Assembly: GCA_964348515.1 (NCBI GenBank) | Contig: CAYGDA010000001.1 | Span: 11,357-75,356, forward strand | Direction of reading: 5' to 3' | Origin: an uncultured Candidatus Saccharibacteria bacterium | GTDB lineage: Bacteria > Patescibacteriota > Minisyncoccia > Phycocordibacterales > UBA5272 | DNA: 64,000 nt | Shown here: positions 50,891 through 54,461 of the stretch, piece by piece | How positions within the stretch are numbered: the stretch's first letter is position 1 | Layout of the letters: each line of letters opens with the position of its first letter | The notes under the pieces: model-generated | Told to the model about the DNA's origin: nothing | Database searches by the model: none | Seen by the model: the letters and a program-made list of their open reading frames with translations, nothing else | Translations under genes and position numbers: made by a program

Positions 50891-51151
50891 TTAAGATTGA
50901 ACAAATCTAGCCCCCTCATTTTTCAATAATTCCATTTTCTGTTTCATCCCTCTGTTGTAATCCCCTATTTTTCCGTCAGAACGCACAACCCTGTGGCACG
51001 GAATTTTCGGGTCGTAGTTTTTATTTAAAATATTCCCGACCGCCCTGTAAGCATTAGGCTTCCCGGCTTTCTTAGCAACTTCCTTATAAGTTAAAGTCTT
51101 ACCCCTGGGGATTTTACGGACGACCGCGTAAACTTTTTGGGAGAAGGTCAT
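50891..51151 (-). CDS. stand-alone methylated-DNA-protein-cysteine methyltransferase (Ogt/MGMT C-terminal domain) protein
   Basis: 86 aa. HTH 'TYKEVAKKAGKPNAYRAVGNIL' and active-site 'PCHRVV' motif of O6-alkylguanine alkyltransferases. Confidence 0.75.
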   Translation of the reverse strand: MTFSQKVYAVVRKIPRGKTLTYKEVAKKAGKPNAYRAVGNILNKNYDPKIPCHRVVRSDGKIGDYNRGMKQKMELLKNEGARFVQS

Positions 51152-51330
51152 TTATTACGGAAATCAGCCCAGAGGGAAATTATGCCTAGAGCCAGGAAAA
51201 GAGCGGATTCAATCCAGTTCCCTTTTTGGAATGCTTCTATAAGGGCTATTCCGAAAAAGATTACGAATACTGTGAGGTTTGGAAAAGATATTTTTTGCAT
51301 GTATGTCTTTACATATACTCTAACATTCAG

Positions 51331-51359
51331 TTCAATTTTTGAAAAAATGGTGTTAGAAT
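51331..51359 (+). promoter_or_regulatory. putative tRNA promoter (TTCAAT-17-TGtTAGAAT, extended -10)
   Basis: TTCAAT 51331-51336, TG at 51351-51352, TAGAAT 51354-51359. Predicted TSS about 6 nt before the mature tRNA 5' end. Confidence 0.35.
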
Positions 51360-51371
51360 CGGCCTGTTTAA

Positions 51372-51443
51372 GGCCCTATCGTCTAACGGTTAGGACGAGA
51401 GCTTCTCAAGCTCTAAATCCGGGTTCGATTCCCGGTAGGGTCA
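51372..51443 (+). tRNA. tRNA-Glu (anticodon CUC)
   Basis: 72-nt cloverleaf folded by hand. Acceptor GGCCCTA/TAGGGTC, D-arm GTCT/GGAC, anticodon stem AGAGC/GCTCT with loop TTCTCAA, T-arm CCGGG-TTCGATT-CCCGG, discriminator A. CCA not encoded. Confidence 0.85.
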
Positions 51444-51489
51444 CAAGTTGCTAATCTGGCACGTTTCCACGACTAGACAACAAAAATTA

Positions 51490-52020
51490 ATGAAGCATCG
51501 AGAACTAACAGATCATATAAAAGGTTCCTTTTTGAAAAGACAATACCTAGAAGCTTTCCTTGTTCAAAGTGCATATATAGAAAGTCTTCTGAAACTATCA
51601 GCAGATTACAGCTTCTTTTTGGCTACATCGAAAGTTAGGAAACCTTCTCCTCCCAAAATTCTTGAAGTAGTAAGTAGAAACTTAGAACGAATGGCTCTTA
51701 ATGATTTAATCAATTTTCTGTACAAAGCTGAGGTAATTACAAAAAAACAGAAAGATCTATTAGACGAATACAGAATAAGGAGAAATAAAATGCTTCATGA
51801 TCTTATTACTGAAATTCAGAAAGATAAATTTGAGGTTGAGTTGAGGGAAATTTGTGAAAAAGGTACGTTGATAATTGAGGATCAAGCATTTATTGAAATG
51901 GCGGATTTGATTGATTTTTTGGAGAAGCCACAATCTACTGAAAACGTAGACCAGACTTCTCAAGCTAAACTACCCGCTGTCCCCAATATTGAAAATAATA
52001 GAAATAAAGAAACTACCTAA
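51490..52020 (+). CDS. hypothetical alpha-helical protein with canonical HEPN motif (R-N-x3-H)
   Basis: 176 aa from the ATG at 51490 (the ORF track starts at a TTG at 51448). 'YRIRRNKMLHDL' contains R-N-K-M-L-H, the R[NHQD]xxxH HEPN RNase signature. AT-rich (about 32% GC) and directly 3' of the tRNA. Confidence 0.5.
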   Translation: MKHRELTDHIKGSFLKRQYLEAFLVQSAYIESLLKLSADYSFFLATSKVRKPSPPKILEVVSRNLERMALNDLINFLYKAEVITKKQKDLLDEYRIRRNKMLHDLITEIQKDKFEVELREICEKGTLIIEDQAFIEMADLIDFLEKPQSTENVDQTSQAKLPAVPNIENNRNKETT

Positions 52021-52059
52021 GAATCTCTTAAGGTCTGAATGTAATCTTCGCTCAATTTT

Positions 52060-52278
52060 CTACTCATCCTTCATATCCCACCTCCGCTTATTGATTTCCT
52101 CCATTTGTTTGTAGGAATGGACGTATTTCTTCCGGTGCTTACTCTCCCTAATCTCTTCCAACTGCTCCTTTGTTAGTAAGGGTGTTTTCAGTTTGCCAAT
52201 CTGTTTAAGAAGACTCTTGGCGAAAGTTCGAGGTCTGTCCCGATACGGTTCACAAATGGAAATCTCATAATTAACAAA
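52060..52278 (-). pseudogene. degenerate C-terminal fragment of a tyrosine recombinase/integrase (no start codon)
   Basis: Stop-to-stop frame translates to '...RDRPRTFAKSLLKQIGKLKTPLLTKEQLEEIRESKHRKKYVHSYKQ...'. This resembles integrase box II (R-H-T-F-A-x-x-L-L ... G-H ... R-Y-x-H) with the Tyr about 35 aa after the Arg. No ATG near the 5' end. Confidence 0.3.
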
Positions 52279-52330
52279 TTACAAAAACTTGACTTACAAA
52301 TGTTTTATTATAGTCTGAGGGAAAAGAAGC

Positions 52331-52933
52331 ATGACTAGTGTCTCCACAACCACACAATTATTATTGCTCCAACAGAAAATTGATTCTTTTGATTGGATAA
52401 TCACTGAAACCACCTTAACCCTGACTTTTTTAATTGCGTTATTTGTGGCCATTCAATTTGTTTACTCACGCAAACTTCAAGTAAAGGACATCGAAAAACT
52501 TAAATTAAATCTTACTAATTTCATTACTAACAAGGTAGATGATAAAGCGCTCGATTTACAGTCGCTAATTAGACAAACTACAGAGGAGTTGAGATCAAAC
52601 ATAAAGGAAGACCAAATCACCCTAACGGCCGAAATTTCAAGAAGTTATGCCCTTCATAACGAACAACTAGGGGCCTTCGAAAATGCCTTTGAATGGTGGT
52701 TAAAGGCCGCAAGATTTTACAAAGAATCAAAAGAAGAAGACCTATTCCGGATATCGTTTGATTCCGCGCTTGATTCTATTACTAAGCTCGATATTACCAA
52801 TAAAGGCGCCTTAAAACTTTTACTCAAACACATGCCTGTTATAGAAGGGTACTTAAATTTTTTGAGACCTTTCAATAAGATTGAAATAGAGATTTTAGAA
52901 AAAAAACTAAAAGAAAAATTAGAGACTCTCTAA
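52331..52933 (+). CDS. hypothetical membrane-anchored helical protein (island gene)
   Basis: 200 aa. One TM helix 'WIITETTLTLTFLIALFVAIQFVY', then helical/coiled-coil. AT-rich. Confidence 0.5.
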   Translation: MTSVSTTTQLLLLQQKIDSFDWIITETTLTLTFLIALFVAIQFVYSRKLQVKDIEKLKLNLTNFITNKVDDKALDLQSLIRQTTEELRSNIKEDQITLTAEISRSYALHNEQLGAFENAFEWWLKAARFYKESKEEDLFRISFDSALDSITKLDITNKGALKLLLKHMPVIEGYLNFLRPFNKIEIEILEKKLKEKLETL

Positions 52934-53517
52934 CTTACTTGGTTAAAAAAACGCCCCCGGAATGTAAGCGCCGCAATGACGGAGGAACCTATAATTGTGT
53001 AAACAGGAAAAAGCAGATTGTAAGCGGTAAAATCTGTAGTCGCCACAACTTCCGAAGTGACCCCCACAACGTATAAAACCCAAAGCGTGGAAGGTTCTGA
53101 TGTCGGGTCTTGGTAAGTTTTAACGATTGTCGGAACCGTCACGGATAAATCGGCAATCATACTGAATATAATTGCCGTTAACGGTTCTCTGGTAATGGCC
53201 CAAAGAGTAATAGCCAGTATGCCAAGCACAATGCATATGCCGTCGGCACGAGTCCACACCGCACGCCCCAAACGCAGTGCCGTGAAAGCTATGATGGTCG
53301 TACTAAGTGTTGAAATAAGAGGCACCGCGAGCGACCAGTCTATTCCTTTAGAAGCTTGCGCAACTGTGGCTATGGCAAACAAAAGCGCCCAACCAAACCA
53401 CGACACAGCGCTTGGCCTGGTGGTGCTGGAAATAATGCTTTTTATATAGGGAACGATAAGCGCAAGCAATAATATGCTTGCGCCGGTTCCAAGCCACACG
53501 TGCCAGTCAAAATTCAT
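52930..53517 (-). CDS. hypothetical polytopic membrane protein (about 6 TM)
   Basis: 195-aa ORF of host-like composition. Six hydrophobic segments. No motif. Confidence 0.5.
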   Translation of the reverse strand: MNFDWHVWLGTGASILLLALIVPYIKSIISSTTRPSAVSWFGWALLFAIATVAQASKGIDWSLAVPLISTLSTTIIAFTALRLGRAVWTRADGICIVLGILAITLWAITREPLTAIIFSMIADLSVTVPTIVKTYQDPTSEPSTLWVLYVVGVTSEVVATTDFTAYNLLFPVYTIIGSSVIAALTFRGRFFNQVS

Positions 53518-53556
53518 ATATGTTTTAAGGATATCATTTCAGTACCAATATTATCA

Positions 53557-53585
53557 TTGACTTTCCTACTTTTTTGTAGTATAAT
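53557..53585 (+). promoter_or_regulatory. consensus sigma70 promoter of GC-rich cassette B (CATTGACTTT ... 17 nt ... TATAAT)
   Basis: TTGACT 53557-53562, 17-nt spacer, perfect TATAAT 53580-53585. Then the GGGG-ATTT-CCCC hairpin (53612-53623), the GAGGAGAAT SD (53649-53657) and the GTG at 53661. Confidence 0.6.
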
Positions 53586-53660
53586 ACGTGTCAGAAATTT
53601 AGAGAAGATTCGGGGATTTCCCCTTAACTAAACCCGCAGTACATTAACGAGGAGAATCAC

Positions 53661-54461
53661 GTGATTGGATCCCCCATCAGCCTGGCGGAAATGCGCGAAA
53701 TTGGCTATCTGGCAGGCGGAATCATGAAGACCTACTTCACCCACTTCGGGATGGAAAGGGTCGTCAAAACCGACACCACCCCGCTTACCAAAGCGGACAC
53801 CGAAATCAACGACATGGTCATCGAGCACGTTCGGCGCATAGCGCCGGAAATCGACATCATCGGCGAAGAGCGCAGCGCCCGCCTGAACAGCCCCTGGCAA
53901 ATCGTCTGCGACCCCGTGGACGGCACTTTCCCCTACTCTTGGGGAATGCCTGTGGCAACGTTCATGCTGGGAGTGCTCTACAAGCACCAGCCTATGGCGG
54001 GCGTCATCTACGACCCGTTCACCGACAGGATGTATTCGGCGGAGGTCGGCAAAGGCGCCTGGATGAACGACAAGAAGCTCAGGGTTTCCAAGGTCAGCAA
54101 AAAGGAAGACCGTCCCATCGTCGGCTACGTCTCCTGGCCGGGCTGCCCGTTTAACGTCATCGGGGCATGCGCGTTTCTGGAGTCGCGGGGAGTTACGCTC
54201 GTGAACATCTGTTCCATCGGCTACCTCGAAGTGGCGGTGGCAAACGGAGAATTCGCGGGTACGATTTTCCCCGGCACGGCATACCACGACACGGCTCCGG
54301 GACACGTCATCGTGGAGGAAGCCGGCGGACTGGTCACTGACATTCTGGGAAACCCCCTCAAGTACGAGGACGGAAAAATCCAGGGCCACATCATGTCCAA
54401 CGGCAGGATTCACGAGCTCCTGGTGAGCGGTATGAGGATTGCGCAGTCGCACACACGCTAG
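53661..54461 (+). CDS. inositol monophosphatase family protein (IMPase/SuhB/CysQ-like)
   Basis: 'DPVDGT' metal-binding motif, 'IDIIGEE' and 'HDTAPGHVIVEEAGG' (WDxAAG-like) motifs. GTG start. About 60% GC. Confidence 0.82.
   Translation: MIGSPISLAEMREIGYLAGGIMKTYFTHFGMERVVKTDTTPLTKADTEINDMVIEHVRRIAPEIDIIGEERSARLNSPWQIVCDPVDGTFPYSWGMPVATFMLGVLYKHQPMAGVIYDPFTDRMYSAEVGKGAWMNDKKLRVSKVSKKEDRPIVGYVSWPGCPFNVIGACAFLESRGVTLVNICSIGYLEVAVANGEFAGTIFPGTAYHDTAPGHVIVEEAGGLVTDILGNPLKYEDGKIQGHIMSNGRIHELLVSGMRIAQSHTR

What the first reader, a model, noticed from the sequence alone, without database searches (positions are those of the whole stretch)
51372..52933. tRNA-Glu-adjacent AT-rich island: HEPN-motif protein, integrase remnant and membrane-anchored partner (candidate defence/toxin module)
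Immediately 3' of tRNA-Glu(CUC) the composition drops to about 30-33% GC for roughly 1.5 kb. The island contains three elements. First, a 176-aa all-helical protein whose 'RIRRNKMLH' matches the canonical HEPN RNase motif R-[NHQD]-x3-H. Second, a stop-bounded, start-less 72-codon frame on the opposite strand resembling the box II/Tyr region of tyrosine recombinases (RTFAKSLL...KH...KYVHSY). Third, a 200-aa protein with one N-terminal TM helix and a coiled-coil body. tRNA 3' ends are classic integration sites. A decayed integrase plus HEPN plus a membrane partner is the signature of a degraded integrative element carrying an abortive-infection or toxin-antitoxin-like system. I recognise neither protein as a described family.
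Basis: partly seen in the sequence, partly recalled or inferred. Interest (0 to 1): 0.7.

Follow-up and report, generated by a model that had tools for sequence, protein, structure and literature searches.

The report
Stand-alone HEPN RNase gene beside tRNA-Glu
Right after a tRNA-Glu gene, this Patescibacteria-type contig carries a foreign-looking gene for a small HEPN-fold RNase from a rare, uncharacterised family that often sits just behind tRNA genes; the proposed integrase remnant and membrane partner are not supported.

Summary
The features exist where stated: tRNA-Glu(CUC) at 51372..51444, a 176-aa ORF (51490..52020), a start-less 72-codon minus-strand frame (52063..52278) and a 200-aa ORF (52331..52933). 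Together they form the most AT-rich 1.5 kb of the window (34.9% GC against 45.5%).

The HEPN call holds.
- The family (37 close homologues, 128 clusters at 50% identity in 1.84 billion representative proteins) keeps Y-R-x2-R-N-x3-H-D-L and an almost invariant N-terminal helix.
- Members give sub-threshold DUF4145 and CARF_HEPN matches.

The rest of the interpretation does not hold.
- The 72-codon frame shows no recombinase similarity.
- There is no repeat of the tRNA 3' end.
- The 200-aa protein is a near-orphan membrane-anchored TPR-like protein, absent from all 15 other homologue loci.

The HEPN gene is a solitary accessory gene of Patescibacteria. It is more AT-rich than its flanks in 11 of 12 loci and sometimes sits in mobile elements. 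A same-strand tRNA (Glu, Gln, Leu or Val) ends 2-46 nt upstream in 5 loci. The most likely function is a single-gene toxin or abortive-infection-type RNase. It is a new member of a known kind.

The parts
51372..51444 (+). tRNA-Glu (anticodon CUC). The HEPN ORF starts 46 nt after its 3' end on the same strand.
   Evidence: ARAGORN; Rfam RF00005, 64.3 bits. By my own reading, a TGnTAGAAT extended -10-like sequence lies at 51351..51359. The promoter scan, which needs both hexamers, did not flag it.
51445..51489 (+). 46-nt tRNA-to-ORF spacer. It has no promoter-like site, no terminator-like site and no obvious Shine-Dalgarno sequence.
   Evidence: The scan found no promoter or terminator here. The fold shows only a weak imperfect hairpin with no T-run. 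Most homologues also lack a Shine-Dalgarno sequence upstream of the conserved ATG (sequence inspection).
51490..52020 (+). Stand-alone HEPN-fold protein, 176 aa. It is DUF4145-like and belongs to a family so far found almost only in Patescibacteria. GC is 33%, GC3 0.26.
51523..51594 (+). Codons for the nearly invariant N-terminal helix (G12..K35, GSFLKxQYLEAFLVQSAYIESLLK).
   Evidence: Invariant columns in alignment A1. Synonymous sites vary freely among 13 loci, so the constraint is on the protein and not on a DNA or RNA element.
51741..51747 (+). A7 homopolymer inside the ORF (ACA AAA AAA CAG), in frame here. Two other lineages carry a 1-nt deletion in the homologous tract.
   Evidence: L009 and L010/L019/L020 have A8 where A9 would restore the frame leading into the RNxxxH motif.
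51769..51804 (+). Predicted catalytic motif Y94-R95-x2-R98-N99-x3-H103-D104-L105 (HEPN Rx4-6H).
   Evidence: Y94 and N99 are invariant. R95, R98, H103, D104 and L105 are conserved in at least 90% of 36 sequences. The motif is retained in most of the ~300-aa fusion relatives. It lies in model helix 85-108.
52063..52278 (-). Stop-bounded 72-codon frame with no usable start. Possibly a frameshifted small gene or a relic. It is not a recombinase fragment.
   Evidence: No Pfam Phage_integrase match at E<=1. No homologue. No recombinase in PDB at E<=10. Coding-like, host-like GC pattern of 0.44/0.29/0.51. An ATG-started 26-codon frame overlaps its 5' part in another frame. The sequence is identical in three other assemblies.
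52331..52933 (+). 200-aa near-orphan protein: N-terminal STTTQLLLLQQK motif, one TM helix, a long helix, then a TPR/SNAP-like C-terminal domain. GC3 is 0.35. No demonstrated link to the HEPN gene.
52930..53517 (-). Multi-pass membrane protein with host-like composition (GC 47.6%). It marks the right-hand edge of the AT-rich patch.
   Evidence: ORF list; GC by codon position; no family assigned.

Best explanation
ORF 51490..52020 encodes a minimal, stand-alone HEPN-fold ribonuclease. Its family is small and uncharacterised, resembles DUF4145, and has so far been found almost only in Patescibacteria (CPR).

Shown:
- HEPN-type helical fold.
- A family-wide conserved R-N-x3-H motif and N-terminal helix under protein-level selection.
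- Sporadic distribution.
- Composition much more AT-rich than the host, both here and in nearly all other loci.
- No conserved neighbouring gene.
- Recurrent placement directly 3' of a same-strand tRNA gene, or inside mobile elements.

Inferred:
- As in other HEPN RNases, two protomers pair so that R98/N99/H103 from each form a composite, metal-independent active site. That site would cut single-stranded RNA (tRNA, rRNA or mRNA).
- The gene is a horizontally moving single-gene toxin or abortive-infection-type defence factor.
- It is transcribed by read-through from the tRNA promoter and weakly translated, since it has no Shine-Dalgarno sequence. It stays harmless until a trigger changes its oligomeric state. 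This is analogous to the single-protein DUF4145 RNase RAZR.

The minus-strand 72-codon frame and the 200-aa membrane TPR-like protein are co-located strays in the same variable tRNA-proximal patch. They are not parts of a module.
For: Fold:
- The model is of moderate confidence: pLDDT 75.7, with the core blocks at 86-95.

Motif and sequence:
- Y94 and N99 are invariant; R95, R98 and H103 are at least 90% conserved.
- DUF4145 is the commonest Pfam match, in 16 of 36 members with best E 4e-4. HepT-like, HEPN_Swt1 and RiboL-PSP also appear.
- PADLOC CARF_HEPN models match 13 and 7 members, with best E-values of 5.7e-6 and 3.4e-5.
- Synonymous sites vary, so the gene is a real protein-coding gene under selection.

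Accessory and mobile character:
- Only 128 clusters at 50% identity in 1.84 billion representative proteins.
- 4 loci among 185,579 species genomes, three of them CPR and one labelled Gammaproteobacteria.
- The gene's GC is 5-18 points below its flanks in 11 of 12 loci. GC3 is 0.26 against a host value of 0.48.
- Mobile or defence-type contexts: L030 lies between a large serine recombinase plus NERD and T4CP plus relaxase genes. L010 is next to PemK and T4CP genes. L005 sits among R-M genes and an integrase. L016 is near PIN and AAA_15 genes.
- Two lineages carry frameshifted copies.

tRNA linkage:
- A same-strand tRNA ends 46, 2, 39, 25 and 5 nt upstream in the window, L003, L009, L026 and L027 (Glu, Gln, Leu, Gln, Val).
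- It lies 0.6-1.6 kb upstream in L002, L007, L015 and L018.

Precedent:
- DUF4145 is a HEPN family found in defence contexts (PMC3710099).
- RAZR/PD-T7-4 is a single-protein DUF4145 abortive-infection RNase that cleaves ssRNA (PMC13017515).
Against: - No RNase activity, toxicity or defence phenotype has been tested.
- No member reaches Pfam's DUF4145 gathering score: 16.5 bits here against a cut-off of 23.1.
- The window protein itself matches no PADLOC model.
- The protein has no evident sensor domain, antitoxin or partner, so how a toxic RNase would be restrained is unknown.
- About half the loci have ordinary housekeeping or metabolic neighbours, for example NrdAB/FKBP, HIT/rhodanese and RibD_C.
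- About 15 relatives of ~300 aa fuse the domain to Sigma70_r4 and DnaA_C helix-turn-helix domains. One of these sits right after rplM-rpsI, which looks regulatory rather than defensive.
- No relatives were found in viral contigs, phage records or plasmid records.
- An empty site in a sister genome could not be examined.
Confidence: 0.55

Rival explanations
1. The three elements form one degraded integrative element inserted at tRNA-Glu. It would carry a two-component abortive-infection or toxin-antitoxin system (HEPN toxin plus membrane-anchored partner) next to a decayed tyrosine integrase.
For: - tRNA adjacency and the lowest GC of the window.
- Both ORFs have low GC3.
- The HEPN fold and motif are confirmed.
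- Some homologues do lie in integrated mobile elements.
Against: - The 72-codon frame has no recombinase similarity in Pfam at E<=1, in the protein index, or in PDB at E<=10. Its GC3 is host-like.
- There is no direct repeat of the tRNA 3' end.
- The 200-aa protein is absent from all 15 other distinct HEPN loci. Its only relative sits between an aaRS fragment and a YHYH gene, with no HEPN nearby.
- The two ORFs are 310 nt apart with an opposite-strand frame between them.
Confidence: 0.07
2. The protein is a non-defence HEPN RNase or RNA-binding factor tied functionally to tRNA loci. It would be co-transcribed with tRNAs and act in tRNA or rRNA processing, turnover or regulation in CPR bacteria. 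The longer relatives would be transcription or replication regulators that use the same domain.
For: - A tRNA lies immediately upstream in five loci, with four tRNA identities.
- No promoter or terminator lies between the tRNA and the ORF.
- There is no antitoxin-like partner.
- Fusions to Sigma70_r4 plus Bac_DnaA_C exist, one directly downstream of ribosomal protein genes.
- A recurring GIY-YIG - tRNA - HEPN order is seen.
- HEPN RNases with processing roles are known, such as Las1 and Ire1/RNase L. Anantharaman et al. (PMC3710099) cover RNA-processing roles of the superfamily; the named enzymes are from my own knowledge.
Against: - The family is very rare and patchy for a processing factor.
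- Composition is foreign to the host in 11 of 12 loci.
- Copies are frameshifted in two lineages.
- Some copies are cargo of mobile elements.
- The tRNA identity is not conserved.
Confidence: 0.2
3. The protein has a HEPN fold but is catalytically inert. It would be a ligand- or protein-binding adaptor, like MtlR or the substrate-binding domains of nucleotidyltransferases. The R-N-x3-H residues would then serve binding rather than RNA cleavage.
For: - Two members replace H103 by Q and R98 by K (P0026, P0031).
- One fusion relative has lost the H (P0101).
- The domain is fused to DNA-binding domains.
Against: - N99 is invariant, and R98 and H103 are kept in at least 90% of members across 40-70% overall identity.
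- This is the pattern of catalytic HEPN families. According to Anantharaman et al., DUF4145 mostly keeps the motif (about 80%), against about 60% for MtlR (PMC3710099).
Confidence: 0.13

Closest known systems
DUF4145 (Pfam PF13643), a HEPN-superfamily family in clan CL0291 (Anantharaman et al. 2013, PMC3710099)
   Same: It is the best and most frequent Pfam match. Residues 70-115 align to profile positions 37-81, the C-terminal part of the model, and those residues include the query's R-N-x3-H motif. 16 of 36 members match. Both have a helical HEPN fold and a conserved Rx4-6H. DUF4145 proteins also occur fused to sigma-type HTH domains, as some relatives here do.
   Different: No member reaches the curated threshold (best about 20 bits against 23.1). 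This family is a bare domain with its own invariant N-terminal helix. It lacks the restriction-endonuclease, helicase, zinc-ribbon or AbiJ-NTD modules typical of DUF4145 proteins. It is nearly confined to Patescibacteria.
RAZR / PD-T7-4 (zinc finger + DUF4145 HEPN; single-gene abortive-infection RNase; PMC13017515)
   Same: Both are single-gene systems with a DUF4145-type HEPN and no antitoxin. In RAZR the R and H of the motif are essential, and the enzyme cleaves ssRNA once activated. RAZR offers a working model for how a lone HEPN can be kept silent.
   Different: The protein here has no N-terminal Cys4 zinc-ribbon sensor; it contains a single Cys. No PADLOC PD-T7-4 hit was found. Nothing is known here about higher-order oligomers or a trigger.
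HepT/MntA (HEPN-MNT) type II/VII toxin-antitoxin toxins (PDB 5yep, 7ae2, 8xdj)
   Different: No adjacent MNT nucleotidyltransferase gene was found in the window or in the other loci examined. The motif is R-N-x3-H-D-L. The Y two residues after H, part of the Rx4HxY signature of these toxins, is absent. That signature is from my own knowledge of the HEPN-MNT literature.
HEPN domains of CARF-HEPN CRISPR ancillary RNases (Csm6/Csx1)
   Different: There is no CARF sensor domain. No CRISPR-Cas genes were seen among the annotated neighbours of any locus. The window protein itself is below the reporting threshold.

Membership tests
HEPN superfamily | All-alpha, four-helix up-and-down core fold | tested here: met
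HEPN superfamily | Conserved Rx4-6H motif, usually R-[NHQD]-x3-H | tested here: met
   R98-N99-x3-H103. N99 is invariant; R98 and H103 are at least 90% conserved in 36 sequences. The motif is kept in most of the distant ~300-aa relatives.
HEPN superfamily | Significant profile match to an established HEPN family | tested here: inconclusive
   The window protein scores E 0.009, 16.5 bits, against DUF4145, below the cut-off of 23.1. Among 36 members, 16 match DUF4145 (best 4e-4), 3 HepT-like, 1 Swt1-HEPN and 1 RiboL-PSP. 13 match PADLOC CARF_HEPN, best 5.7e-6. The matches are consistent in direction, but none passes a curated threshold.
HEPN superfamily | Dimer with a composite active site and metal-independent RNase activity | not testable with these tools
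   Only single-chain prediction was available, and no biochemistry.
Pfam DUF4145 (PF13643) | Score at or above the gathering threshold of 23.1 bits | tested here: not met
   16.5 bits for the window protein. Three of 10 distant relatives tested gave sub-threshold matches (best 20.3 bits); the other seven gave none. The family should be called DUF4145-like, not a DUF4145 member.
HEPN-MNT (HepT/MntA) toxin-antitoxin | Adjacent minimal nucleotidyltransferase (MNT) antitoxin gene | tested here: not met
   No NTP_transf_2-type neighbour was found in the window or in the other loci examined.
RAZR / PD-T7-4 | N-terminal Cys4 zinc-ribbon fused to the DUF4145 HEPN | tested here: not met
   The HEPN core starts at residue ~12 and the protein contains a single Cys (sequence). 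No PADLOC PD-T7-4 match.
Tyrosine recombinase (for the 72-codon frame 52063..52278) | Detectable similarity to the Phage_integrase catalytic domain (box II, H-x-x-R ... Y) | tested here: not met
   No Phage_integrase hit at E<=1. No homologue of any kind. PDB matches at E<=10 are unrelated coiled-coil proteins.
tRNA-inserted integrative element / genomic island | Insertion at the 3' end of a tRNA gene, with atypical composition | tested here: met
   The AT-rich patch starts at the tRNA 3' end and is the lowest-GC 1.5 kb of the window. GC3 is 0.26 and 0.35 against 0.48 for the host.
tRNA-inserted integrative element / genomic island | Direct repeat of the tRNA 3' end (attL/attR) bounding the element | tested here: not met
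   The 20-mer occurs once in 64 kb with up to 3 mismatches allowed. Only 11-nt chance-level repeats occur in 51300..54000.
tRNA-inserted integrative element / genomic island | Integrase or recombinase gene, or a recognisable remnant | tested here: not met
   None in 50.5-54 kb.
tRNA-inserted integrative element / genomic island | Empty site in a related genome | not tested
Exact-protein look-ups returned only the same strain.

The most novel reading that the evidence does not exclude
The family may be a tRNA-gene-associated cassette with its own logic of expression and mobility.
- The HEPN ORF starts 2-46 nt after a tRNA and has no Shine-Dalgarno sequence. Its mRNA could be made only as a tRNA-mRNA co-transcript and released by tRNA 3' processing.
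- Output could be gated by slippage at an internal A7-A9 tract. The same-site 1-nt deletion occurs in two lineages.
- In several genomes a small GIY-YIG nuclease gene abuts the 5' side of the same tRNA. This suggests a GIY-YIG - tRNA - HEPN unit that targets or exploits tRNA genes, for example homing next to tRNAs or cleaving tRNA.
Probability: 0.12. Interest if true: 0.65.

Novelty: new member of a known kind. Interest (0 to 1): 0.35.

Why it matters
Patescibacteria have tiny genomes, and very little is known about how they resist phages or use toxins. Current Pfam, NCBIfam and PHROGs models do not capture this protein, and PADLOC models reach only some of its relatives. A lineage-specific, single-gene HEPN RNase would therefore add one entry to the catalogue of CPR accessory or defence genes. 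It would also be a very small test case for how a lone HEPN is kept in check.

The practical value is modest. HEPN RNases are a large and well-described superfamily, and one more divergent family is not surprising. The recurrent placement immediately behind tRNA genes and the shared poly-A frameshift site are the only features that could lead somewhere new.

Tried and rejected
1. att sites. I searched for the tRNA 3' 20-mer with up to 3 mismatches and for direct and inverted repeats in 51300..54000. Only the tRNA itself and chance-level 11-mers turned up, including CTTCTCAAGCT, which is shared by the anticodon arm and the ORF tail. About one such exact 11-mer pair is expected by chance in 2.7 kb.
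2. Integrase remnant. Pfam, NCBIfam, PHROGs and PADLOC at E<=1, the 5.8-billion-protein index, PDB sequences at E<=10, and tblastn against all fetched loci gave nothing recombinase-like.
3. Conserved partner. All-against-all BLAST of ORFs within about +/-3.5 kb of 12 homologue loci, plus Pfam scans of 20 neighbours, found no gene shared beyond the HEPN itself. The exceptions are a dnaX-like AAA gene and a small GIY-YIG gene near tRNA-Gln in some loci.
4. N-terminal conservation. I asked whether the extreme conservation reflects an overlapping DNA or RNA element, prompted by contig breaks at that spot in several assemblies. Synonymous sites vary freely, so the constraint is on the protein.
5. 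Phage or plasmid origin. No relatives in IMG/VR contigs, INPHARED phages or PLSDB plasmids.
6. Other RNA genes in the island. Rfam at E<=1 found only the tRNA.
7. Solved relatives by sequence. A profile search against PDB gave only chance-level matches to CENP-N and UvrD.
8. The afdb50 fold library was unavailable.
9. Empty site. Exact-protein look-ups of flanking genes returned only the same strain from sister samples. Those contigs break inside the tRNA or in the conserved 5' part of the ORF, which is uninformative.
Full report
**What is in the sequence.**
ARAGORN finds a single tRNA in the 64-kb window: tRNA-Glu(CUC) at 51372..51444 on the + strand. Rfam confirms it at 64.3 bits. Three reading frames lie downstream:
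- A + strand ORF ending at 52020. It is listed from TTG 51448, but its conserved start is ATG 51490, giving 176 aa.
- A stop-bounded 72-codon frame on the - strand at 52063..52278. Its only canonical start codon is an internal TTG that leaves about 33 codons.
- A + strand ORF at 52331..52933 (200 aa).

The stretch 51445..52933 has 34.9% GC. It is the lowest of all 1.5-kb windows in the sequence (mean 45.5%, sd 3.0). The deficit is visible at third codon positions. GC3 is 0.26 for the first ORF and 0.35 for the 200-aa ORF, against 0.479 +/- 0.064 for 39 other genes. The 72-codon frame instead has a host-like, coding-like pattern of 0.44/0.29/0.51.

**The 176-aa protein is a HEPN-fold protein.**
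- *Family size.* A search of 5.8 billion proteins returned 37 homologues of 145-212 aa, none with a precomputed Pfam domain. A profile search of 1.84 billion cluster representatives found 128 clusters at E<=1e-3.
- *Conservation.* The alignment shows an almost invariant N-terminal helix (G12, S13, L15, K16, L20, E21, F23-Q26, A28-E31, K35). It also shows a conserved Y94-R95-x2-R98-N99-x3-H103-D104-L105 motif. N99 and Y94 are invariant, and R95, R98 and H103 are at least 90% conserved.
- *Protein-level constraint.* Codons for the invariant helix differ freely at synonymous sites among 13 loci, so the constraint acts on the protein.
- *Structure.* An AlphaFold model built on this alignment has pLDDT 75.7, with core blocks at 86-95. 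It is all-helical with a disordered tail from residue 150.
- *Sequence matches.* They point the same way but are weak. The window protein scores E 0.009 (16.5 bits; cut-off 23.1) against DUF4145, over residues 70-115, which include the motif. Of 36 members, 16 match DUF4145, 3 HepT-like, 1 Swt1-HEPN and 1 RiboL-PSP. Thirteen match a PADLOC CARF_HEPN model, best E 5.7e-6.
- *Membership.* No member passes Pfam's threshold, and more distant relatives do not either.

I therefore call it a DUF4145-like HEPN family that current models do not cover.

**The other two elements.**
The 72-codon frame matches no recombinase:
- No Phage_integrase hit at E<=1.
- Nothing in NCBIfam, PHROGs or PADLOC beyond noise.
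- No homologue in the protein index.
- Only unrelated coiled-coil proteins in PDB at E<=10.

An ATG-started 26-codon frame overlaps its 5' part in another reading frame. The sequence is identical in three other assemblies. It may be a frameshifted small gene of unknown kind.

**Genomic contexts of the HEPN family.**
I obtained DNA for 15 other distinct loci (L002, L003, L004, L005, L007, L008, L009, L010, L014, L015, L016, L018, L026, L027, L030; L014 is only 1 kb). They came from exact look-ups and pattern scans.
- *Taxa.* The named genomes are Moranbacteria, Saccharibacteria and 'Patescibacteria group', plus one MAG labelled Gammaproteobacteria.
- *Other collections.* No relatives occur in viral contigs, phage records or plasmid records.
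- *No shared partner.* All-against-all comparison of neighbouring ORFs finds no partner gene. The window's 200-aa protein and 72-codon frame occur only in other assemblies of the same strain.
- *Neighbours.* They range from housekeeping genes (NrdAB, FKBP, YceG, ClpP, HIT, rhodanese, RibD_C) to clear mobile or defence genes.
  - L030 lies between NERD plus a large serine recombinase and a T4SS coupling protein plus relaxase.
  - L010 lies next to a PemK toxin and two coupling-protein genes.
  - L005 lies among HinfI/DpnI-type R-M genes, PIN_12 and an integrase.
  - L016 lies near PIN and AAA_15 genes.
- *Composition.* The gene's GC is 5-18 points below its flanks in 11 of 12 loci.
- *Decay.* Two lineages carry frameshifted copies.

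Together with the rarity of the family, this describes a dispensable, horizontally moving gene rather than an ancestral core locus.

**Association with tRNA genes.**
In five loci a same-strand tRNA ends just upstream of the conserved ATG:

| Locus | tRNA | Distance to ATG |
|---|---|---|
| window | Glu | 46 nt |
| L003 | Gln | 2 nt |
| L009 | Leu | 39 nt |
| L026 | Gln | 25 nt |
| L027 | Val | 5 nt |

L026 and L027 were chosen because their predicted proteins carried tRNA-like N-terminal extensions, so they are not an unbiased sample. Among 12 loci taken without regard to this, 3 have a tRNA within 50 nt and 7 within 1.6 kb. From general knowledge of CPR genomes (about 45 tRNAs per Mb), I estimate that roughly 3-4% of genes would have a same-strand tRNA immediately upstream. 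The excess looks real, although shared synteny (dnaX-like gene ... tRNA-Gln ... HEPN in L003, L007, L018 and L026) reduces the number of independent events.

In the window, no promoter-like or terminator-like site lies between the tRNA and the ORF. Most family members lack a Shine-Dalgarno sequence. Read-through transcription from the tRNA promoter is therefore plausible but unproven.

**Mechanism proposed.**
- *Shown:* fold, motif, protein-level selection, composition, distribution, lack of a partner, and tRNA proximity.
- *Inferred from the biology of HEPN RNases (PMC3710099; PMC13017515):* the protein dimerises so that R98/N99/H103 of two chains build one metal-independent active site that cuts single-stranded RNA. 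It acts as a single-gene toxin or abortive-infection-type factor.
- *Closest functional precedent:* RAZR/PD-T7-4 is a one-protein DUF4145 HEPN RNase that stays inactive until phage ring proteins reshape its oligomer. RAZR senses its trigger through a zinc ribbon, which is absent here, so the trigger and the restraint are unknown for this family.
- *Confidence:* about 0.9 for 'HEPN-fold protein with a catalytic-type motif', and about 0.55 for the whole statement including a toxin or defence role.

**Rivals.**
- *tRNA-linked processing or regulatory role (0.2).* In favour are the tRNA adjacency and the ~300-aa relatives that add Sigma70_r4 and DnaA_C helix-turn-helix domains. One of these sits directly after rplM-rpsI in Minisyncoccia MAGs. 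Against it are the rarity of the family, its foreign composition, the pseudogenes and the mobile-element contexts.
- *Inert HEPN-fold adaptor (0.13).* The conserved motif argues against it.

**Novelty and score.**
This is a new member of a known kind: a lineage-restricted, minimal HEPN family outside current profile libraries. A specialist would not be surprised by it. The tRNA-proximal placement, the GIY-YIG - tRNA - HEPN arrangement and the shared poly-A frameshift site are the only unusual points, and they rest on few loci. Interest is 0.35.

Noticed in passing
window 51741..51747; L009 6001..6485; L010, L019 and L020 (6001..6479 in L010): The HEPN ORF contains an A7-A9 run about 35-40 nt 5' of the RNxxxH codons. 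It is in frame in the window (A7) and in L005 and L016 (A8). L009 and the L010 type both have A8 where A9 would keep the frame, which is the same-site 1-nt deletion in two lineages. The L010 type is identical in three independent assemblies. Possible causes are phase variation, -1 ribosomal frameshifting on A_AAA_AAA, transcriptional slippage, or homopolymer error.
   Followed up: partly
L003 9673..10462; L027 5751..6606; L007 4140..6498; L015 4305..5600: A small GIY-YIG nuclease gene (81-106 aa; the copies are 37-53% identical to each other) ends at the 5' edge of the same tRNA that the HEPN gene follows. This gives a compact GIY-YIG - tRNA - HEPN order with tRNA-Gln (L003, L007) or tRNA-Val (L027). 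In L015 the order is tRNA-Gln, GIY-YIG, HEPN. The window has no GIY-YIG copy.
   Followed up: partly
proteins P0066, P0070, P0076, P0079, P0083, P0084, P0091, P0099, P0101; locus L028 6001..6942: About 15 relatives of ~300 aa carry the same HEPN-like N-terminal domain, mostly with RNxxxH retained, followed by Sigma70_r4 and Bac_DnaA_C helix-turn-helix domains. P0066 is annotated only as 'helix-turn-helix domain-containing protein'. It sits directly after rplM-rpsI in two Minisyncoccia MAGs, with a tRNA-Gly on the opposite strand about 450 nt downstream.
   Followed up: partly
window 53661..54461 (+): The inositol-monophosphatase-family gene just right of the AT-rich patch is a compositional outlier in the opposite direction. 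Its GC is 59% and its GC3 0.79, against a host GC3 of 0.48. This suggests a separate foreign acquisition, so the whole tRNA-proximal interval may be a variable region.
   Followed up: no
window 52331..52400; P0039 (L013 175..822): The 200-aa protein and its only detectable relative share an identical N-terminal STTTQLLLLQQK stretch immediately before the transmembrane helix, although they are only 36% identical overall. It may be a sorting or processing signal.
   Followed up: no
window 50891..51300 (-): Upstream of the tRNA lie a stand-alone 86-aa MGMT DNA-binding-domain protein (PF01035, E 7e-31; short and possibly ATL-like) and a 50-aa hydrophobic ORF. Both have below-average GC (42% and 39%).
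   Followed up: no
L023, L024, L025, L011, L012, L001 (other assemblies of the same strain): Independent assemblies of this strain break either inside the tRNA-Glu gene (about 51394-51418) or in the conserved 5' part of the HEPN ORF (about 51524-51562). This probably reflects sequence shared with other community members, and it means the island is often split across contigs.
   Followed up: partly
L030 976..9423: The HEPN homologue P0016 lies inside what looks like an integrative mobilisable element of a CPR genome. The element carries a large serine recombinase, NERD, a TrwB-type coupling protein, a Replic_Relax relaxase and DUF932.
   Followed up: no
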